From: a virus
Taxonomy: Duplodnaviria > Heunggongvirae > Uroviricota > Caudoviricetes
DNA length: 14,535 nucleotides
Reading direction: 5' to 3' (one strand)
IMG/VR virus record: IMGVR_UViG_2534681705_000018
Span: 1-14,535 of that record
A program made the position numbers and the translations under genes. The notes under the pieces were generated by a model, which made no database searches, was not told where the DNA came from, and worked only from the letters and a program-made list of their open reading frames with translations. Positions within the stretch are counted from its first letter, which is position 1, and each line of letters starts with the position of its first letter. This document shows, piece by piece, positions 7,011 to 14,535 of this stretch.

Positions 7011-7290
7011 TTGTGAACAGTCGTGAATAGTTAGTGAACAGTTTTTTAATAACTGTTCACTATGTTTTTTAGTTTAAAATCATATGGTTATTTTGTTTCA
7101 GTGAACAGTTGAACAGTTACCCCCTATAGAATTTAATTTGCAGTGAAAATGATTCACTGTTACAAGTTACAATGCGTTTTAAAAGTTTTAGCCGAAACTG
7201 TTCACGGCGTTCATTTCGTCGATGAATCCAGTAATGACGCAGCTTTTAGAGGTGAACACTACTGTTCACCACTGTTCACCACTGTTCACT
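7011..7290. repeat. Iteron-type origin of replication.
   Basis: GTGAACAG is at 7013, 7034 and 7101. Its complement CTGTTCAC is at 7053, 7198, 7262, 7272 and 7282; the last three form the tandem (ACTGTTCACC)x3. One-mismatch variants are at 7023, 7109 and 7252. The copies flank AT-rich stretches and sit directly downstream of the primase-helicase gene, overlapping its stop. Confidence 0.75.
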
Positions 7291-9058
7291 TTTCATGGAT
7301 TTTTGGCACAGCGGGTAACCATTCATTAGCACTGTCAGCCAGCTCCATGTTGTAGCGCATTCCGACATTGGTCTTTGCCTTCTTATACTCAGCCCCATAT
7401 TCTTTCATCACTTTTGGGAAATCTTTGCCAAAATTAGTTAGATTTAATGGCTTATCGAAACCATAAGCATCCATATATGCAAGATATGCATGGTAAAGAT
7501 AAATTCGAGGGGCTCTTGGATATATATTCAGGTTTCCCATGAACATTCCTACAGCTTCACCAAGTTCGACAATATGGTTACAAAAAGCATATAGCGGATC
7601 AGTATGGCGTTTTACTTCCATTGCTTCTTCACCATCACGTTGCTCGAGCAGTAATGTTCTTGCTTTTTCGGGATCTGAAAAATTTACCAACAGCCTACGG
7701 ACTATTACCGGAATTTCCGCTGCAATTTTTTTGGGTAAACATGTGTCCTTGTTTTCTTCCGCTATCGGATTATTGAACTGAAAAATAACCCTACGGCGTG
7801 AAATACCTCCCGCTCTTTCTGTAAAAACCATCGGTTTATTATTTGTTATCAAAACAACTGAGCGTAAGACAGTGGTGTATCTTTTTTCATATTTCGGGTT
7901 AATTTGCAGAGGATCCCCACCTGTTATAGCTTTAATACCATTACCTTCACCAAAATATTTAGGTTGGTCCGGTAAAATAATCAGACTTTTACCAACTAGT
8001 TGCTCACGTCCACCAGCATCATCTAACGCTTTCATATCACTGCCTGCGGTGTTCTGCTCACCCGCCAACATTCTGGCAATTTGAGTAAACATACTTTTAC
8101 CACTTCCACCTTCGCCAGTTGCTTCAATGAATAATTGCCAGTCGTAGCGATTAGCCAAAACCATAAACAGAGCAGCACATATCCGCTTCATCTTTGATGA
8201 ATCGTATCCTGCTGCATGTGACAGCCAACGATGAAAATGGGGCGCATGGTCATGAATATTTTCACCAGGCGCAGGTGGCGTATAATAAATTCCATTATGC
8301 GAAGTGATCCAGTGCTCTGGTGAATGAGGTAAAAATCTACCACTTGTTATGTCATAAACTCCATTTTCAAAAGGTATTATGGTGTCACTCTGTTCTCTCA
8401 TTACGGGTACAGATATTTTTAAAGCATCAACCGCATTACTAATTGCCCGCTTACTGAAATTTGTCTTGTTTTTTTCGTAAATTGATACCATTTTACGACT
8501 CAACTCCATATCAGATATTTTTTCCCACACTCCAGAACAGTATGCATAAGCAAAATTGTTACCAGGGTGAACAGCTATTTCCTCAAAGCATTCAGCCAAA
8601 AGTGAAGCTCGCTCGTTATCCGCCATTCTGGAAAGAGAGATTTTGTGTTTTTTCTCAGTCCTTCCTGACAGAATATCCCCGCGCTCTGCCTGTTCGCGGA
8701 TCCGTTGCAGGTAATCGCGCCAGTTCTCCGGTTCCCGGTCGGTGATGCCTTTGTATAATTTCGCCTCCTGTACGCCAGCCAGCGCCAGCTTTTCAGCGAT
8801 AGCATTGATCTGGATTGGTTCGATCTCCCCCGCGAGATAGACACGCGCAAAGCGGCGTTTCTCGTCAATAATGCGGATATTCGCCAGGTCTGCCAGTTGC
8901 TTTGGCCCCAGGTAAACAGGTGGTACGTTATCGCCGTGTTTTCGTCCTTCGCTTTCAATCCAGTGTTGAGCATGGGAGTAAGCGTCCGTCCCGGCAAAAA
9001 TGATTACCTCGGTGAATTTATCCTTCGGCTGATATTTTAAATTCGGTGCGTTTTTCAC
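7286..9058 (-). CDS. P4/D5-family primase-helicase (replication initiator, SF3 helicase).
   Basis: Walker A is GEGGSGKS and Walker B-like is SLIILPD. A D5_N-like region precedes them (IPFENGVYDITSGRFLPHSPEHW). The start is a GTG overlapping the upstream TGA (GTGA), with GGAGGT 5 nt upstream. The first internal Met is only at about codon 154. Confidence 0.85.
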   Translation of the reverse strand: MKNAPNLKYQPKDKFTEVIIFAGTDAYSHAQHWIESEGRKHGDNVPPVYLGPKQLADLANIRIIDEKRRFARVYLAGEIEPIQINAIAEKLALAGVQEAKLYKGITDREPENWRDYLQRIREQAERGDILSGRTEKKHKISLSRMADNERASLLAECFEEIAVHPGNNFAYAYCSGVWEKISDMELSRKMVSIYEKNKTNFSKRAISNAVDALKISVPVMREQSDTIIPFENGVYDITSGRFLPHSPEHWITSHNGIYYTPPAPGENIHDHAPHFHRWLSHAAGYDSSKMKRICAALFMVLANRYDWQLFIEATGEGGSGKSMFTQIARMLAGEQNTAGSDMKALDDAGGREQLVGKSLIILPDQPKYFGEGNGIKAITGGDPLQINPKYEKRYTTVLRSVVLITNNKPMVFTERAGGISRRRVIFQFNNPIAEENKDTCLPKKIAAEIPVIVRRLLVNFSDPEKARTLLLEQRDGEEAMEVKRHTDPLYAFCNHIVELGEAVGMFMGNLNIYPRAPRIYLYHAYLAYMDAYGFDKPLNLTNFGKDFPKVMKEYGAEYKKAKTNVGMRYNMELADSANEWLPAVPKIHEK

Positions 9059-9550: not shown

Positions 9551-9908
9551 GATTCACCCCCTGAATAACCTGATAACCGCAACTGGTCAGCAATTCGATA
9601 AATTCCGGCAATGTGCCGAAACAGTAATCATCACGCAGACGTTCGCGGGATACTTCAACGCCGTTTTCGTAGTGACTCACCATGCGTCCGGTAAAATGCA
9701 GATCATCATCGTGATGGCACGTTAACGGCTTAATCAGTCGCGCACGTTCTGCCAGTTCCAGCAATGCTTCAACGCTTCCGGCAATTGCACCATCCGGCAG
9801 GTTGTAATTACGCACTATGCGCCCGTTCTCCACATGGACCAGTAGCTGCCCGGTAAATTTCTCGTCAAACTGAATGCGGTTAAGGTCGGTAAGTGACAGG
9901 TTAATCAT
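9543..9908 (-). CDS. Hypothetical protein (121 aa) with two copies of the FTG repeat domain.
   Basis: The start overlaps the Icd-like stop (ATGATTAA). The two internal copies are EKFTGQLLVHVENGRIVRNYNLPDGAIAGSVEALLELAERA and LHFTGRMVSHYENGVEVSRERLRDDYCFGTLPEFIELLTSC. Confidence 0.65.
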   Translation of the reverse strand: MINLSLTDLNRIQFDEKFTGQLLVHVENGRIVRNYNLPDGAIAGSVEALLELAERARLIKPLTCHHDDDLHFTGRMVSHYENGVEVSRERLRDDYCFGTLPEFIELLTSCGYQVIQGVNHG

Positions 9909-10104
9909 GGCGTACCTCCTGACGAATACGGGCGGCGAATACCATCACGCAGCCATCAGGAGATTGCTGGCGTGCTTCCTGTTCGCTGGTGGCCTCGATG
10001 TGAATCACGCGCGGTTGTGCCGTGCTCAGAGCGATAAAACGCCAGATGTATTTATTCAGGTTGTGCGAGTCCCGCCCTTGCGGGTGTGTGGTATGATTTC
10101 TCAT
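9901..10104 (-). CDS. Host cell division inhibitor Icd-like protein (67 aa).
   Basis: MRNHTTHPQGRDSHNLNKYIWRFIALSTAQPRVIHIEATSEQEARQQSPDGCVMVFAARIRQEVRHD. The pattern IEATSE.EAR....FAARI recalls Icd-like proteins of P4-type elements. It has its own SD (GAGG, 5 nt upstream of the ATG at 10104). It lies in frame at the 3' end of the 402-codon ORF. Confidence 0.6.
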   Translation of the reverse strand: MRNHTTHPQGRDSHNLNKYIWRFIALSTAQPRVIHIEATSEQEARQQSPDGCVMVFAARIRQEVRHD

Positions 10105-11109
10105 AGCTACCTCGATAATCTTGCTATCGTTGGTGGTTAGAAGCTCTGCGAGTGGTAACGACACTTGCGGGGCTTTGCCTTTAAGGTGCAAGTCACCTTT
10201 GAGGGTTATGCTACTTTTAGGTGACTTGCACTTCAAGCCTTTTTTTATTTTTTTTTCTACGTATACTGAACGCCACCTAACAGTAAGGAGGCCAGTAATG
10301 CCAACGGGTACAACCAACAACAAATCACAACAAAAAACGGCTAGAATCCCTCTAGAAGTTTTAAGCGAAATGAATTTGGTCAAAGAGGAAAACGAAACAG
10401 ACGCGCAGTTTATCGTTACAGCCATGCGTGGCGAGATCAAACGCCGCCAGCGCCGCAAGGCCAAAGAACAGGAGTAACCATCACCAGCGCCGTGGTGTGA
10501 GGAACTACGGTGCATCGTTTTACAGGGCAGCGCCATGACCAACAAAGAATCAACCAAAACACCATCACCAACTCGTAAGAGACGACGCAAAAATATAGCG
10601 CATGAACATGAATCAGAAAGATTCGCACCTTGTTCGTTTGCTCTTGAGAAATTCCTTAAAGAGCACAGGAAAAAGCTCTCGTTGCAAACCTTGGAACGAA
10701 CCAAATCTGACTGATCACATTGCCCACCAGCCGCAAATGTGGCATTGTTGGTGATGCGTTCAAGTATGTAGCTTTTCCACTGGCGGCTCTCTGCGGTCGC
10801 CTTTGTTTTATCCAGAACGAAATCAGACATCAGATTGATCAGCACCTGGCGACCTGACAAAATCGCATCAGTCGCGCCACCAGCAAAATTTTTTGCTTTC
10901 CGGACAGCGTGGCCAACGATATTTTGCAGCAAAATATTCTGCATTTCTGGCGTGCTGTGGCGACGGTGATCAGCGCCTTCACATTGAACGAACTTGTCGC
11001 TAAAATTCACCCACATAGCAAACATCGCGGTGCTGTAGGTAATTCGTTCACAAAGGCGCTCCGGCAACGGGGCGCTTTCTCTTTTTGTAACGGTCAGAGC
11101 GTTACACAT
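9901..11109 (-). CDS. 402-codon ORF as drawn, probably composite. Only the first ~140 codons (about 10690-11109) look like a genuine protein.
   Basis: The ATG at 11109 overlaps the antirepressor stop (ATGTGTAA), which suggests translational coupling. The N-terminal part looks protein-like. The middle ~200 codons are Cys/Ser/Leu/Arg-rich and cross the operator hairpin, a T-run and the antisense of the SD-bearing RHH gene. The last 67 codons are the Icd-like gene. Confidence 0.35.
   Translation of the reverse strand: MCNALTVTKRESAPLPERLCERITYSTAMFAMWVNFSDKFVQCEGADHRRHSTPEMQNILLQNIVGHAVRKAKNFAGGATDAILSGRQVLINLMSDFVLDKTKATAESRQWKSYILERITNNATFAAGGQCDQSDLVRSKVCNESFFLCSLRNFSRANEQGANLSDSCSCAIFLRRLLRVGDGVLVDSLLVMALPCKTMHRSSSHHGAGDGYSCSLALRRWRRLISPRMAVTINCASVSFSSLTKFISLKTSRGILAVFCCDLLLVVPVGITGLLTVRWRSVYVEKKIKKGLKCKSPKSSITLKGDLHLKGKAPQVSLPLAELLTTNDSKIIEVAMRNHTTHPQGRDSHNLNKYIWRFIALSTAQPRVIHIEATSEQEARQQSPDGCVMVFAARIRQEVRHD
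10185..10232. promoter_or_regulatory. Paired palindromic operators forming a 13-bp perfect inverted repeat in the divergent control region.
   Basis: GTGCAAGTCACCT (10186-10198) and AGGTGACTTGCAC (10219-10231). Each arm is itself GGTG-N5-CAC(C). The centres are about 34 bp apart. The repeat lies between the Icd-like start (10104, minus) and the RHH start (10298, plus). Confidence 0.55.
10298..10477 (+). CDS. Ribbon-helix-helix protein (59 aa), transcribed divergently from the replication operon.
   Basis: A consensus SD, TAAGGAGG, lies 7 nt upstream of the ATG at 10298. KTARIPLEVLSEMNLVKEENETDAQFIVTAMRGEI fits the RHH pattern and is followed by a basic tail. TATACT lies about 30 nt upstream. 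Confidence 0.55.
   Translation: MPTGTTNNKSQQKTARIPLEVLSEMNLVKEENETDAQFIVTAMRGEIKRRQRRKAKEQE
10535..10714 (+). CDS. Possible small basic protein (59 aa), below the ORF-track cutoff.
   Basis: Hand translation gives MTNKESTKTPSPTRKRRRKNIAHEHESERFAPCSFALEKFLKEHRKKLSLQTLERTKSD. It is in the same plus frame as the RHH gene, separated by a single TAA. The SD is weak. It is antisense to the long minus ORF. Confidence 0.3.
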   Translation: MTNKESTKTPSPTRKRRRKNIAHEHESERFAPCSFALEKFLKEHRKKLSLQTLERTKSD

Positions 11110-11950
11110 GGCTGTTTTCCTCCATGCGACGGGCTAACCAACGCTGCGAAAGACGAATTAATTCAGCCTTCCGCTGGTGGTAGTCCTGGCCTAACTCAAT
11201 CAGCGTGATATTGCTCTGCTCAAGGTAAGAAAGGTGCTCAAGCTGCAACGTGCTCATGTGGTCGCGTGGTTCGCCTGTAATGCCGTTCGCCAGTGCCCAC
11301 TGTTTTGCAGTCATGCCACCCAGCACGATACGCGCCAGCATGTTCGCTTCCGTGGTGTAGTGGTGCTGGAGTGTGTTTTTACCCAGTTCAGCCCGGTACG
11401 CCTCCAGCGCGGCACACATTGGCTTAAAGTAGCTGGCAACTGTGATACGGGCTTTCAGTTCCCGGCGTAACGCTGCGGAACGCACTGGCGCTACCTTGTG
11501 TAGCTCCTCCTCGCATTTGATAAAGTACTGGCGAACGGCGCGGCCCTGTTCGGTACGTTCGACCATCGCCAGTTCTTTCGCCATGTTCGTGGAGATCAAA
11601 TAGTCTTCACTGCGACGATCACCGCCGCGCTTTGTTGTCCAATCAAAATCAAACTGTTCAATATTTACACTTTGGTTCCCCCGTTTCGGGGAATCAAAGT
11701 ACAAATTTTCTACAACTTCAAAATCCACGCCATTTTTAAATCCGTACTCATCAATACGTCCTTTAATCCAGGTAGTGAAATCACGGCCTACCCCGAGCGC
11801 CTTATGCAACGCTCTGGCGCTAACAATATTGGTTTCACGCCCGCCAATAACGCCGGAAATAACCGGGATAATTTCGCCAAAATTTTGCAGATTCTGGTTT
11901 TCAGGCCGAACGAAGCCCTGCCCCTGTACGGGCGTTTTTCGCAGTTTCAT
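11102..11950 (-). CDS. Phage antirepressor, AntA/AntB N-terminal domain family.
   Basis: NIVSARALHKALGVGRDFTTWIKGRIDEYGFKNGVDFEVV and DYLISTNMAKELAMVERTEQGRAVRQYFIKCEE are typical AntA-domain signatures. AGGAG lies 5 nt upstream of the ATG. Confidence 0.75.
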   Translation of the reverse strand: MKLRKTPVQGQGFVRPENQNLQNFGEIIPVISGVIGGRETNIVSARALHKALGVGRDFTTWIKGRIDEYGFKNGVDFEVVENLYFDSPKRGNQSVNIEQFDFDWTTKRGGDRRSEDYLISTNMAKELAMVERTEQGRAVRQYFIKCEEELHKVAPVRSAALRRELKARITVASYFKPMCAALEAYRAELGKNTLQHHYTTEANMLARIVLGGMTAKQWALANGITGEPRDHMSTLQLEHLSYLEQSNITLIELGQDYHQRKAELIRLSQRWLARRMEENSHV

Positions 11951-12028: not shown

Positions 12029-12226
12029 TCAGGTAGCTGTTCCGCGTGATTCAGCAATACGCTGATTAATCCACTCGTCAATTTCACTCTCAACGAAAGC
12101 AATCGCTCGCGAGCCAATTTTAACTGATGCAGGAAATTTACCTTGCCCCATAAGGCGATAAATCCATGCCTTGCTATATCCAGTTCTACGCTGAACTTCC
12201 GTTAAACGAATAAGCGTATTTGACAT
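12029..12226 (-). CDS. alpA: AlpA-family (CP4-57 regulatory protein-type) HTH regulator or excisionase.
   Basis: LIRLTEVQRRTGYSKAWIYRLMGQGKFPASVKIGSRAIAFVESEIDEWI is the canonical Phage_AlpA pattern. GAGG lies 8 nt upstream of the ATG. Confidence 0.9.
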   Translation of the reverse strand: MSNTLIRLTEVQRRTGYSKAWIYRLMGQGKFPASVKIGSRAIAFVESEIDEWINQRIAESRGTAT

Positions 12227-12328
12227 ATATTTACCTCATAACGTCTACTCAATTTGACGAGGTAATCATGGCACAGAAATAACGAATATTTTCATACCCT
12301 CAGGCCTAATGGTAATCGGGAATATTTT

Positions 12329-12441
12329 TACCCTAAGGGTAATAGTAAAATTGATGGGAAAGCATACAAAAATACCCTAAGGGTGAGGTCTGATTACCCT
12401 TAGGGTGAGACGCGAACAAAACATGAGATACCACTAGGGTA
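12329..12441. promoter_or_regulatory. Array of four 13-bp palindromes upstream of alpA: operators and/or an RNA terminator hairpin.
   Basis: TACCCTAAGGGTA (12329-12341), TACCCTAAGGGTG (12373-12385), TACCCTTAGGGTG (12395-12407) and TACCACTAGGGTA (12429-12441). A half-site, TACCCT, is at 12295. On the minus-strand transcript, copies 3 and 2 can pair (11-bp stem, 11-nt loop) and are followed by ATTTTTGT. Confidence 0.6.
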
Positions 12442-12446
12442 AGGCT

Positions 12447-13193
12447 TCATCGTTTGATAGGACAGGCGACAAGCTCAATAGATGCGGCCTGTCGGGAGGT
12501 AAAACCTCGTTTTTCAAGCTCAGTAGTAATCGCGCCCTGGTTTCCCCTGGTGGCGCGCTCATTTTCCGGATCGTAATTGGCCCACTCTCTGTTTCTAATC
12601 TCGATAGCCAGATACAATGGGTCATCATCTCTGTATTTATTTAATAGAATTGGACGTTCGCTTTCGAGTTTGCGGATTTGCTCTTTAAGTGAAGAAATTT
12701 CCGCAAGTAACACTTCAATATTCTGTTCATCATCCAGAAACTCATTATCAACCACATCAGAAGTTGGTAGAGTTATTTCACTTAATGGTAAAAATAAATC
12801 AATGCCTATTTTCTCTGCAAATTCTTTAAGTTCTGCACGACGAAACCCATGCTTATCAAAAAGGCTTGCCGACCATCTTACATCACAATTTTGAAAAGGT
12901 GCGAATAATGCTATAGGCACACTATTTCTTTCACGAATAACTTCCAGGAGGTCTGTTAAAGTAGGGGCACTATTATATTGATTGGAAAGATCGACATATG
13001 TTGATTCAATAGTACCGGCAATACCTTGCTTAACCCATTCAGGAAGTTCAATCGCACATTCTTTCAAGTAAAGAAAATCTGCAATCTGTGAATAACTAAC
13101 ATGCGGTTGATGTAATTGAATACGAGTTATCAACTCCCTCAGGCTAATAAACTCCCACTCCCTTGCTTTAAGCACTTCGGCAATATCAATCAT
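12447..13193 (-). CDS. Mosaic orphan protein (248 aa): unknown N-terminal domain, coiled coil, and an HTH-like C-terminal tail.
   Basis: The ORF-track start at 13274 is a GTG. The ATG at 13193 has GAGGTG 5 nt upstream (MIDIAEVLKAREW...). The coiled coil is VLLAEISSLKEQIRKLESE. The C-terminus RGNQGAITTELEKRGFTSRQAASIELVA looks like a helix-turn-helix. Hand-counted GC is 21/60 at 12721-12780 and 33/60 at 12481-12540. Confidence 0.6.
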   Translation of the reverse strand: MIDIAEVLKAREWEFISLRELITRIQLHQPHVSYSQIADFLYLKECAIELPEWVKQGIAGTIESTYVDLSNQYNSAPTLTDLLEVIRERNSVPIALFAPFQNCDVRWSASLFDKHGFRRAELKEFAEKIGIDLFLPLSEITLPTSDVVDNEFLDDEQNIEVLLAEISSLKEQIRKLESERPILLNKYRDDDPLYLAIEIRNREWANYDPENERATRGNQGAITTELEKRGFTSRQAASIELVACPIKR

Positions 13194-13320
13194 ACGCACA
13201 CCTCGGCGTCCTCTGTAGTGGTGGCTGTGCCAGCCCGCAGAGGTGTACGGGTTTTCAGGAGCGACCCTAGACACAGCCTTTTCTTAATCGCTCAAAGTCT
13301 ACTACTGTATACTCAACCAG

Positions 13321-14535
13321 TCACCCGCATTTTCCGAACTCACCATGCACCACATTTCCGCCATGCTCGAGCGAATCCATATAGTCGGCATACCACTGGA
13401 GCATCTCCCGGCGACCATCCAGATATTGCGCATGGTTGTATGTGCCACGAATTGAGTTTTTATCGACGTGTGCGAGCTGTGTCTCTATCCACGCGGTGTT
13501 ATAGCCCTGCTCATGCAAAATGGTGCTCATGGTGTGCCGGAATCCATGACCAGTAACGCGCCCGGCATAGCCGATACGACGAATGAGCACATTCATCGCC
13601 ATTTCACTCATTGGCTTACTGTGGTGAATACGACCGGGGAAAATAAACTGATACTGGCCTGTCATGTTTTTTAACTGCTCCAGTATTTTTATCGCCTGTT
13701 CTGGTAATGGCACACAATGCGGACGGCGCATCTTCATTCGTTCTTTAGGCACTTCCCACAAACGATTATCAAAATCGATCTCCAGCCATTCTGCCTGCCG
13801 TAATTCCCCGGGTCTGACACCTGTCAGAATTAATAGCCGCATTGCCAGTTTGACGATCTGGCTTCCGGTGTACGTATTAAAAACGCGGAAAAATTCCGGC
13901 AGTTCGTCGGCTTTCAAATAGGCGTAATGCTCTTTTTTATGTGGAGCAAATGCGCTCACCAGGTCAGGGGCTGGATTATATTCGGCGCGTCCGGTGATGA
14001 TTGCGTACCGGAACACCTCGCCGCATCGCTGGCGAACCTTACGCAATTTTTCAGTCGCACCACGGTCATTAAGACGGGAAAGAACCGCCAGCAATTCCAT
14101 CGGCTTAATTTCTGCGATCGGCCTACCGCCAATGTACGGAAAAACATCTTTTTCAAACGTCTCGATCATTTCCTCGGCGTATGACGATGACCACCTGTCG
14201 ATCCGCTTTTCGTACCATTCGCGAGCAATACCCTCAAAAGTATTGCCAAATTTGCTCGCCTGTTCTCGCTTTTGGGCTTTTCTGGCCTCACTTGGATTTA
14301 TACCACCAGCAAGAAGCCTTTTAGCCTCATCCCTTGCCGCCCTGGCATCAGACAGAGACACATCAGGGTATACCCCCAACGACAACATTTTGGGCTTTCC
14401 TGCAAACCTGTAGCGCAGTCGCCACCCTTTCGAACCGTTCGGCTCAATGAGCAACGAAAGCCCGTTACCGTCATTGAGTGTATAAGCCTTTTCTTTCGGC
14501 TTCGCGCGCCTGATGGCAAGGTCTGAAAGCAGCAT
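13321..14535 (-). CDS. int: P4/CP4-57-type tyrosine integrase (tRNA-targeting family).
   Basis: The N-terminal arm-binding-type region is LSDLAIRRAKPKEKAYTLNDGNGLSLLIEPNGSKGWRLRYRF. Catalytic-region motifs are TGVRPGELRQAEW, HGFRHT and IRGTYNHAQY. This is the full 404-aa ORF, and the window ends on its ATG. Confidence 0.95.
   Translation of the reverse strand: MLLSDLAIRRAKPKEKAYTLNDGNGLSLLIEPNGSKGWRLRYRFAGKPKMLSLGVYPDVSLSDARAARDEAKRLLAGGINPSEARKAQKREQASKFGNTFEGIAREWYEKRIDRWSSSYAEEMIETFEKDVFPYIGGRPIAEIKPMELLAVLSRLNDRGATEKLRKVRQRCGEVFRYAIITGRAEYNPAPDLVSAFAPHKKEHYAYLKADELPEFFRVFNTYTGSQIVKLAMRLLILTGVRPGELRQAEWLEIDFDNRLWEVPKERMKMRRPHCVPLPEQAIKILEQLKNMTGQYQFIFPGRIHHSKPMSEMAMNVLIRRIGYAGRVTGHGFRHTMSTILHEQGYNTAWIETQLAHVDKNSIRGTYNHAQYLDGRREMLQWYADYMDSLEHGGNVVHGEFGKCG

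What the first reader, a model, noticed from the sequence alone, without database searches (positions are those of the whole stretch)
12294..12441. Four copies of a 13-bp palindrome upstream of alpA that can also fold as a terminator
TACCCTNAGGGTR occurs four times in the 220-bp alpA upstream region, plus one half-site. That density is far above chance and is typical of cooperative dimer operators. Because each copy is self-complementary, copies 3 and 2 can pair in the minus-strand transcript. The resulting 11-bp stem is followed by ATTTTTGT, an intrinsic-terminator shape that would insulate alpA from int-side readthrough. In Gram-negative PICIs alpA is the induction gate, so this is probably where the helper-phage signal is read. 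I saw no strong sigma-70 promoter by eye, which fits dependence on an activator.
Basis: seen in the sequence. Interest (0 to 1): 0.6.

Follow-up and report, generated by a model that had tools for sequence, protein, structure and literature searches.

The report
Operator array gating a satellite's alpA switch
A cluster of short palindromes in front of the master switch gene (alpA) of a phage-parasitic island is real and conserved across many bacterial genera. It always travels with one uncharacterised neighbouring protein, so it is most likely that protein's docking sites, giving a testable handle on how such islands stay silent until a helper phage arrives.

Summary
The palindromes are real. 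There are three exact TACCCTNAGGGTR copies (12329, 12373, 12395), one two-mismatch copy (12429) and a promoter-proximal wide site (12295-12314), far above chance. In 77 related loci (53 distinct intergenic regions, Escherichia to Orbaceae) the same ACCCT-N-AGGGT motif sits at nearly fixed distances from the alpA start (about -206, -174, -152, -108, -76), while the spacers diverge.

AlpA is not the binder. Islands whose AlpA is 97% identical lack the motif. In a 97%-identical sister island, exactly 12248-13273 is replaced: the 248-aa gene, the Rfam int-alpA RNA motif, the palindromes and the promoter. Every locus carrying the conserved C-terminal domain of the 248-aa protein has the motif. A homologous but divergent protein family (hhalign 93.6%) has different palindromes.

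Best reading: the palindromes are a phased operator array for the cassette-encoded, coiled-coil (probably dimeric) protein that controls a weak, conserved extended -10 alpA promoter. Repression is the more likely sign. Binding itself is inferred, and the protein fold matches no known DNA-binding domain.

The hairpin plus ATTTTTGT folds as claimed (-17 to -19 kcal/mol). Its T-run exists only in the Escherichia lineage, so termination is at most a secondary, lineage-specific function.

The parts
12429..12441 (.). O4, the degenerate palindrome TACCACTAGGGTA (2 mismatches). It lies 6 bp downstream of the stop codon of the 248-aa gene; centre is -209 from the alpA ATG.
   Evidence: A site at -206/-209 is conserved in Raoultella, Pantoea, Symbiopectobacterium and Klebsiella.
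12395..12407 (.). O3, an exact palindrome TACCCTTAGGGTG (centre -175). It is the upstream member of the close pair and forms the 5' arm of the minus-strand hairpin.
   Evidence: The position is conserved at -173 to -175 across genera.
12373..12385 (.). O2, an exact palindrome TACCCTAAGGGTG (centre -153), 22 bp from O3. It forms the 3' arm of the hairpin.
   Evidence: The 22-23 bp pair spacing is conserved.
12364..12373 (-). T-run (AUUUUUGUAU in the minus-strand RNA) directly after the O3/O2 hairpin. This is the possible terminator tail.
   Evidence: It is present only in Escherichia-lineage islands.
12329..12341 (.). O1, an exact palindrome TACCCTAAGGGTA (centre -109).
   Evidence: A site at -107 to -109 is conserved in most loci of the long-intergenic architecture and carries an extra upstream ACCCT half-site in many genera.
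12295..12314 (.). Promoter-proximal wide site TACCCTCAGGCCTAATGGTA, with half-sites 8 nt apart instead of 1. The centre is about -76 from the ATG, about -45 from the predicted transcription start. Its promoter-side half-site lies over the -35 position.
   Evidence: I4. The wide site ACC(C/A)T-N8-A(G/T)GGT is conserved at -76/-77 in most loci.
12265..12273 (-). Candidate extended -10 promoter element TGCCATGAT (hexamer CATGAT, 12270 to 12265). The predicted start is about 30 nt upstream of the ATG.
   Evidence: TGn + (C/A)AnnAT occurs at -46/-47 from the ATG in 45 of 50 distinct loci. It is weak by PWM and no consensus promoter was found. The start site is predicted, not mapped.
12234..12262 (-). 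alpA leader. An inverted repeat (CCTCGT ... ATGAGG) can sequester the Shine-Dalgarno sequence, with a strongly conserved loop (AATAGAC).
   Evidence: 83% of cells paired against about 40% when slid; covariation is not above shuffles.
12029..12226 (-). alpA, 65 aa (Phage_AlpA / HTH_17), the regulated gene.
   Evidence: PF05930, E = 2.4e-19. Role in PICI induction: PMC6092414, PMC11773190.
12447..13193 (-). Cassette gene, 248 aa. It has a variable N-terminal part, a conserved W..F..YGFRR.E motif, a coiled coil, and a conserved about 70-aa C-terminal helical domain (…DDPL.LAIEIRN.EW..YDP.ND.TRGNQ…IELVACPIKR). This is the proposed operator-binding protein.
   Evidence: No Pfam or PHROG family. It always lies directly upstream of the palindromes.
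13210..13277 (-). Rfam RF02996 'int-alpA RNA' motif, immediately upstream of the cassette gene's ribosome-binding site.
   Evidence: 47 bits; gathering score 35.8. It was found in the same place in all 11 other family-A loci scanned and was absent from L004 and EcCIMP1.
12248..13273 (-). The exchangeable cassette: int-alpA RNA motif, 248-aa gene, operator array and alpA promoter. The whole segment is replaced in an otherwise 95-99% identical island (L005).
   Evidence: homology to L005 ends at 12247 and resumes at 13274.
13321..14535 (-). Tyrosine integrase, 404 aa, at the island's end.
   Evidence: Arm-DNA-bind_3, Phage_int_M, Phage_integrase.

Best explanation
The palindromes are a phased array of operators for the protein encoded just upstream (the 248-aa ORF, 12447-13193, minus strand). 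The array has four 13-bp sites plus one promoter-proximal wide site. Protein and sites form one exchangeable regulatory cassette (12248-13273), inserted between int and alpA in a subfamily of Gram-negative phage-inducible chromosomal islands.

Proposed mechanism (inferred). The protein dimerises through its coiled coil. It binds ACCCT-N-AGGGT sites that lie on one face of the helix (spacings of 22, 33 and 44 bp) and fills the whole intergenic region from its own stop codon to the -35 position of a weak extended -10 alpA promoter. Most likely it keeps alpA off in the quiescent island, about 60% repressor against 30% activator given that it binds. Its variable N-terminal part, a separate small ORF in some genera, would be the module through which a helper-phage product changes its activity. 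That would let AlpA autoactivation start the island's cycle.

In the Escherichia lineage the O3/O2 pair followed by a T-run may additionally terminate read-through from int and the cassette gene.

Shown: the sites, their phasing and conservation, the cassette exchange, and the exclusive association with this protein family. Inferred: binding, the sign of regulation, helper sensing and termination.
For: 1. Enrichment and phasing.
2. Across 77 loci (53 distinct intergenic regions) that encode the C-terminal domain, ACCCT-N-AGGGT is the top 5-N-5 palindrome in 45 of 53. The rest carry one- or two-mismatch or ACTAT/ATAGT variants. All are followed by alpA where the contig allows.
3. Site centres are fixed at about -206, -174, -152, -108 and -76 from the ATG in Escherichia, Raoultella, Pantoea, Symbiopectobacterium and Klebsiella, while the spacers diverge.
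4. Copy number varies only in 33-bp steps, giving intergenic regions of 194, 227 and 260 bp.
5. AlpA is dissociated from the sites: AlpA 63/65 identical without the motif. The sister island is 95-99% identical outside 12248-13273.
6. The N-terminal half of the protein is swapped or split off while the C-terminal domain stays attached to the sites.
7. A homologous C-terminal domain family (hhalign 93.6%, E = 2e-7) sits in the same position with the same AlpA type. It carries other palindromes and never ACCCTNAGGGT.
8. There is a coiled coil before the C-terminal domain.
9. The proximal half-site lies over the predicted -35. In short-intergenic relatives a full site is centred about -30 from the predicted start.
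10. Canonical terminators occur between the cassette gene and alpA in L090 and L099. This suggests the upstream gene is transcribed while alpA must stay silent.
11. Literature: alpA promoters are helper-inducible and AlpA-autoactivated, and no repressor is known for Gram-negative PICIs (PMC6092414, PMC11773190).
Against: No binding data exist; everything rests on comparative genomics, and gene and sites are physically linked.

The DNA motif stays almost constant while the protein diverges to about 20-25% identity. That would also fit a conserved external binder.

Covariation between the TRGNQ segment and half-site variants is only suggestive.

The promoter and transcription start are predicted only. 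Most sites lie upstream of the core promoter, a geometry also compatible with activation.

EcCIMP1, whose alpA promoter is helper-inducible, has no such cassette. The cassette is therefore not a universal requirement.
Confidence: 0.6

Rival explanations
1. Same binder, opposite sign. The cassette protein is an activator. It sits at the wide site abutting -35 and switches on a promoter that lacks a -35 element, perhaps only after it binds a helper-phage product.
For: The promoter is weak and has no -35 match. The proximal half-site abuts -35 and most sites lie upstream of the core promoter. Cassette-less PICIs are off by default and are activated by the helper (PMC6092414, PMC11773190).
Against: Four to six phased sites spanning about 150 bp are more typical of repressor assemblies (established knowledge of lambda CI and 186 CI, from my own knowledge). 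In short-intergenic relatives the proximal full site is centred near -30, an occluding position. Terminators between the gene and alpA suggest the gene is expressed in the silent state.
Confidence: 0.2
2. The palindromes are bound by an external factor, either a helper-phage transcription factor or a conserved host protein. The neighbouring 248-aa gene is merely linked cargo.
For: The motif is nearly invariant across very divergent hosts and cassette proteins. The protein's fold is not recognisably DNA-binding. The helper signal for alpA is unknown (PMC6092414).
Against: Co-occurrence of motif and protein family is complete in both directions in the data gathered. All 20 phage-collection contigs that had both the 22-bp pair and alpA carried the protein wherever the contig reached that far. 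Family-B and EcCIMP1 islands lack the motif. Recombination has repeatedly replaced the N-terminal half of the gene but never separated the C-terminal domain from the sites. No phage record has the operator DNA or the protein. The only other phage-collection contigs with a close pair are unrelated sequences of 33-69% GC with other spacings.
Confidence: 0.15
3. The palindromes are AlpA's own autoregulatory sites, as P4 Vis binds its own late promoter region.
For: AlpA activates its own promoter in EcCICFT073 and EcCIMP1 (PMC6092414, PMC11773190). AlpA is a DNA-binding winged-helix protein.
Against: Islands with AlpA 63/65 identical (differences only at residues 2 and 4) have no ACCCTNAGGGT site upstream of alpA. 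Family-B loci with the same AlpA recognition-helix region also lack it. No further copy of the motif occurs elsewhere in the window.
Confidence: 0.05
4. The main function is at the RNA level. The O3/O2 pair forms an intrinsic terminator, or the array forms a structured 3' UTR, that insulates alpA from int-side transcription.
For: A hairpin of -17 to -19 kcal/mol is followed by AUUUUUGU, on the sense strand only. L002-type islands have a tighter version: a 15-16 bp stem, a 5-nt loop and a U7 run at -23 to -27 kcal/mol. Canonical terminators occupy the same interval in L090 and L099.
Against: Any two copies of a palindrome will pair. The T-run is absent outside the Escherichia lineage and lies in a DNA segment shared by the Escherichia types, so it counts as one evolutionary event. 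What is conserved is the sequence of every half-site and the helical phasing, not just complementarity. The central bases mismatch (G/G) in most L002-type islands. The loop here is 11 nt, outside the 3-8 nt range of the scan.
Confidence: 0.1

Closest known systems
SaPI Stl master repressor and its stl-str operators (Gram-positive PICIs)
   Same: Both are island-encoded regulators sitting next to int and gating the island's lytic-type operon. Both have a modular, highly variable part attached to a conserved part, and several sites in the control region. In SaPIs, induction occurs when a helper-phage protein binds the repressor (from my own knowledge and the summary in PMC6092414).
   Different: Here the gene is co-directional with its target rather than divergent. 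The conserved, presumed DNA-binding part is C-terminal and has no recognisable HTH. The target is the activator gene alpA. Binding and helper sensing are untested.
Lambdoid immunity regions (CI/Cro with OR and OL)
   Same: Both have multiple palindromic operators with a free central base and cooperative spacing. Both have repressor plus operators exchanged as one cassette between otherwise near-identical elements. Homologous proteins carry different operator sequences.
   Different: There is no divergent promoter pair and no Cro-like partner was seen. The protein fold is unknown. The operator sequence is unusually constant across genera.
alpA promoter of EcCICFT073 and EcCIMP1 (Gram-negative PICIs)
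   Same: Gene order is the same (int ... alpA ... antA/bro ... primase) and alpA is the induction gate. That promoter is helper-inducible and AlpA-autoactivated (PMC6092414, PMC11773190).
   Different: EcCIMP1 has no 248-aa-type gene and no ACCCTNAGGGT sites between int and alpA. No operator or repressor has been described for those islands.
Satellite phage P4 Vis (an AlpA-family protein) regulating its own late promoter PLL
   Same: An AlpA-family gene is preceded by repeated protein-binding sites (from my own knowledge; Vis is noted as an AlpA homologue in PMC6092414).
   Different: Here the sites do not follow AlpA. They are 13-bp palindromes rather than Vis boxes.
Rfam RF02996 int-alpA RNA motif
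   Same: It is present in the window at 13210-13277 (47 bits) and in every family-A cassette scanned.
   Different: It lies upstream of the cassette gene, not next to alpA or the palindromes. Its function is unknown. This work places it as part of the same exchangeable cassette.

Membership tests
Gram-negative phage-inducible chromosomal island (PICI) | Co-oriented int and alpA at one end, followed by a Bro/Ant zone and a primase-replication gene | tested here: met
   (integrase domains, Phage_AlpA, AntA, D5_N/Pox_D5/DUF5906 primase). Gene order.
Gram-negative phage-inducible chromosomal island (PICI) | Induction, excision and packaging depend on a helper phage | not testable with these tools
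   Known only for relatives (PMC6092414, PMC11773190).
Repressor-operator (immunity-type) module | Several copies of a dyad-symmetric site clustered in the control region, more than chance | tested here: met
   three exact copies, one degenerate copy and one wide site in 220 bp; 0 of 200 shuffles reach the count.
Repressor-operator (immunity-type) module | Sites conserved in sequence and position in relatives while flanks diverge | tested here: met
Repressor-operator (immunity-type) module | Cognate protein encoded alongside; protein and sites change together between related elements | tested here: met
   Cassette swap 12248-13273. Family A goes with ACCCT-N-AGGGT; the homologous family B goes with other palindromes. 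Finer residue-to-base covariation is only suggestive.
Repressor-operator (immunity-type) module | The protein has a recognisable DNA-binding domain | tested here: not met
Repressor-operator (immunity-type) module | The protein binds the sites and an operator overlaps the promoter | not testable with these tools
   Overlap with the -35 is predicted only from a conserved extended -10. Needs EMSA or footprinting and start-site mapping.
Intrinsic (rho-independent) terminator | Stable G+C-rich stem directly followed by a U-run on the transcribed strand | tested here: met
   An 11-bp stem (6 G-C pairs), -17.2 kcal/mol, with tail AUUUUUGU.
Intrinsic (rho-independent) terminator | Short loop (3-8 nt) | tested here: not met
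   The loop is 11 nt in this window, so the scan does not list it. L002-type relatives have a 5-nt loop.
Intrinsic (rho-independent) terminator | Hairpin plus U-run conserved in relatives | tested here: inconclusive
   The U-run occurs only in the Escherichia lineage, inside a shared segment. Unrelated canonical terminators occupy the same interval in L090 and L099.
AlpA/Vis autoregulatory binding sites | Sites follow the AlpA allele | tested here: not met
   AlpA 97% identical without the sites.
SaPI Stl-type master repressor | HTH repressor transcribed divergently from the operon it represses | tested here: not met
   The gene is co-directional with alpA and no HTH was detected.
Rfam RF02996 int-alpA RNA | Covariance-model score above the gathering threshold | tested here: met
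   47 bits against 35.8 at 13210-13277, minus strand.

The most novel reading that the evidence does not exclude
The 248-aa protein family is the missing master regulator and helper sensor of a large subfamily of Gram-negative PICIs. It would be a dimeric DNA-binding protein of a previously unseen fold. Its interchangeable N-terminal modules would each recognise a different helper-phage product, working like Stl of staphylococcal islands but evolved independently. The operator array, the int-alpA RNA motif and the protein would together form a portable 'immunity cassette' that determines which helpers can induce an island.
Probability: 0.3. Interest if true: 0.8.

Novelty: new variant of a known kind. 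Interest (0 to 1): 0.66.

Why it matters
How Gram-negative PICIs stay silent and how they sense a helper phage is an open question. [quoted passage not shown] This locus offers defined DNA sites, a defined candidate protein with a swappable sensor-like half, and natural controls. Those controls are a sister island with the cassette exchanged and a homologous family with different sites. Together they turn the question into simple binding and reporter experiments. It also gives a genomic context to the orphan Rfam motif int-alpA. The cassette occurs in E. coli pathotypes (O104:H4, STEC, ETEC, APEC) and in many other Enterobacterales, so it may influence which phages mobilise these islands.

Tried and rejected
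- AlpA as the binder: rejected, because near-identical AlpA occurs without the sites.
- Helper-phage copies of the operators: a scan of IMG/VR for close pairs gave 30 contigs. Twenty were islands of this type and 10 were unrelated. BLAST of the operator DNA and the protein against 50,697 phage records found nothing.
- EcCIMP1 as a direct experimental proxy: rejected, because it lacks the cassette.
- A consensus sigma-70 promoter: none found.
- RNAalifold on the alpA leader predicted no structure. A hand-specified hairpin is 83% paired but without significant covariation.
- P0119 as the L004-type protein: it is not. Homology of the two families was shown instead by profile-profile comparison.
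- Known host transcription-factor sites (NarL 7-2-7, MqsA) were considered from memory only. The half-site spacing differs, and this was not tested.

Full report
OBSERVATION.
The 220-bp interval between the stop codon of a 248-aa ORF (12447-13193, minus strand) and the alpA start (12226, minus strand) holds five related elements.
- Three are exact matches to TACCCTNAGGGTR: 12329, 12373 and 12395.
- One copy has two mismatches: 12429, TACCACTAGGGTA.
At up to two mismatches the window has 10 strand-hits against 0.94 expected, and no shuffle of 200 reached that number. Start-to-start spacings are 44, 22 and 34 bp. The MFE is -19.1 kcal/mol with z = -3.2. No consensus sigma-70 promoter is present.

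CONTEXT.
The window is a Gram-negative PICI-type island. Its genes are an integrase (13321-14535), the 248-aa ORF, alpA (12029-12226), an AntA antirepressor-family gene (11102-11950), small ORFs, a D5-type primase (7286-9058) and accessory genes, all on the minus strand. The literature establishes three points.
- AlpA is required for induction of such islands and activates its own promoter.
- A helper phage switches the promoter on by an unknown route.
- Whether Gram-negative PICIs have a repressor is unclear (PMC6092414; for EcCIMP1, PMC11773190).
Neither paper, nor any other I could find, describes operators upstream of alpA.

THE SITES ARE CONSERVED AS SITES.
I gathered 77 loci that encode a relative of the 248-aa protein's C-terminal domain. 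They came from E. coli genomes, species-representative genomes, IMG/VR, metagenomes and exact-protein look-ups, and give 53 distinct intergenic sequences.
- ACCCT-N-AGGGT is the most frequent 5-N-5 palindrome downstream of the gene in 45 of the 53.
- The others carry one- or two-mismatch versions or an ACTAT/ATAGT variant.
- alpA follows wherever the contig allows.
Site centres sit at about -206, -174, -152, -108 and -76 from the alpA ATG, to within one to three bases, in Escherichia, Raoultella, Pantoea, Symbiopectobacterium and Klebsiella. The DNA between the sites is not conserved. The close pair is always 22-23 bp apart. Escherichia islands differ in copy number only by 33-bp units, giving intergenic lengths of 194, 227 and 260 bp with 3, 4 and 5 exact sites. 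The central base varies freely. This is the signature of dimer-binding sites held on one face of the DNA helix.

WHO BINDS?
AlpA is excluded as far as comparison can exclude it. Islands L004 and L005 encode an AlpA that is 63/65 identical, differing at residues 2 and 4 only, yet have no such site. L005 is 95-99% identical to the window everywhere except 12248-13273, which is replaced as a block. That block holds the 248-aa gene, the palindromes, the promoter region down to 21 bp before the ATG, and an Rfam 'int-alpA RNA' motif.

Within the islands that have the palindromes, the N-terminal half of the protein is unrelated (34% overall, essentially none in the first 130 residues). In some cases it is a separate small ORF. 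The C-terminal 70-90 residues stay conserved. Recombination has therefore repeatedly cut inside the gene without separating the C-terminal domain from the sites.

The replacing cassette (family B) encodes a protein whose C-terminal domain is homologous (hhalign 93.6%, E = 2e-7, 25% identity). Its intergenic region has its own four-copy palindrome, AATGG-N6-CCATT, at spacings of 45, 97 and 23 bp. Three further family-B loci from Dickeya, Pseudomonas and Enterobacter have other GGTG/CCAC-type dyads, none has ACCCTNAGGGT, and all are followed by alpA.

No phage record carries the protein or the operator DNA. The only other IMG/VR contigs with a close pair of the palindrome are unrelated sequences.

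THE PROTEIN.
It belongs to a small family: 75 clusters at 50% identity among 1.84 billion proteins. The conserved domain is always C-terminal, and no member has a Pfam domain. The conserved core has four parts.
- A W..F..YGFRR.E motif.
- A variable linker.
- A coiled coil, with weak bZIP/GCN4-like matches (helix 155-179).
- A four-to-five-helix domain ending in IELVACPIKR (pLDDT 78).

PROMOTER GEOMETRY (PREDICTED).
A TGn + (C/A)AnnAT element, an extended -10, lies at -46/-47 from the ATG in 45 of 50 distinct loci. In the window it is TGCCATGAT, 12273 to 12265. It scores weakly and has no -35 partner.

With a start about 30 nt before the ATG, the wide site is centred near -45 and its right half-site covers the -35 position. 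In relatives with short intergenic regions, a full 13-bp site is centred near -30. The remaining sites extend upstream to the stop codon of the cassette gene.

This fits occlusion or a wrapped repressor complex somewhat better than activation, but activation cannot be excluded.

TERMINATOR.
The hairpin is real, and in L002-type islands it is tighter: a 15-16 bp stem, a 5-nt loop and a U7 run, at -23 to -27 kcal/mol. Several points limit the inference.
- Two copies of a palindrome must pair.
- The T-run is missing in all other genera.
- In Escherichia the T-run lies within a segment shared by both island types, so it is a single evolutionary event.
- Most L002-type islands have a G/G central mismatch.
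On the other side, canonical terminators occur in the same interval in L090 and L099. Stopping read-through before the alpA promoter does therefore seem to matter in this group. I treat termination here as a plausible secondary role.

VERDICT.
The operator interpretation is well supported. The terminator is possible but not a conserved feature.

Nothing comparable is described in the literature available to me. The closest analogues are Stl of staphylococcal islands and lambdoid immunity cassettes, from which this differs in gene orientation, protein fold and target.

Confidence that the cassette protein binds the palindromes is about 0.6. Given binding, repression is favoured over activation roughly 60:30.

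Noticed in passing
window 13210-13277 (-): An Rfam RF02996 'int-alpA RNA' motif (47 bits) lies directly upstream of the 248-aa ORF's ribosome-binding site. It overlaps the GTG-extended 275-aa reading of that ORF, which favours the ATG at 13193. The motif was found in the same position in all 11 other family-A loci scanned and in neither L004 (family B) nor EcCIMP1. It therefore belongs to the cassette rather than to int or alpA as such.
   Followed up: partly
window 12234-12262 (-): The alpA leader can form a hairpin that pairs the Shine-Dalgarno sequence (ATGAGG) with CCTCGT. The loop (AATAGAC) is more conserved than the stem and is shared even with the family-B cassette. 83% of cells are paired against about 40% in slid controls, but covariation is not above shuffles. 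It could be a translational lock or AlpA's own target.
   Followed up: partly
window 12248 and 13273 (cassette borders); L005 18410 and 19416: These are clean recombination borders of the regulatory cassette between two islands that are otherwise 95-99% identical. The left border is 21 bp upstream of the alpA ATG.
   Followed up: yes
L003 3278-3504; L034 5318-5449; L077: The operator array expands by tandem 33-bp units, each one palindrome plus spacer. This gives intergenic regions of 194, 227 and 260 bp with 3, 4 and 5 exact sites, always three helical turns per step.
   Followed up: partly
L004 3346-3537; L097-L099: A second cassette family in the same position encodes a 230-245-aa protein with a homologous C-terminal domain. 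It has its own palindrome arrays (AATGG-N6-CCATT in E. coli, GGTGnCCACC-like in Dickeya and Pseudomonas) and occurs from Escherichia to Pseudomonas and Azotobacter.
   Followed up: partly
L013, L015, L017 (genes at about 2130-2500): In Proteus, Yersinia and Klebsiella the protein is only 143-153 aa and is preceded by a separate 99-117-aa ORF. In the E. coli island L001 the gene is likewise split in two. The variable N-terminal part can therefore be a separate polypeptide.
   Followed up: no
O1 position in L006, L008, L056, L058, L059, L067 and others: Many genera have an extra direct half-site just upstream of the -108 palindrome (ACCCTnACCCTnAGGGT). This window lacks it.
   Followed up: no
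window 9901-11109 (-): The 402-aa ORF has an odd composition and no family. Relatives annotate this stretch as Icd-like or ash-family pseudogenes and small plus-strand ORFs. Relatives (L091, L006, L008, L012, L013) carry C4/isrK immunity-type RNAs in the corresponding zone, but none reaches the Rfam threshold in this window.
   Followed up: no
L092-L094: Distant family members (348-349 aa) sit between terminase-type genes and alpA rather than next to int. Their sites are of the ACTAT-N-ATAGT type.
   Followed up: no
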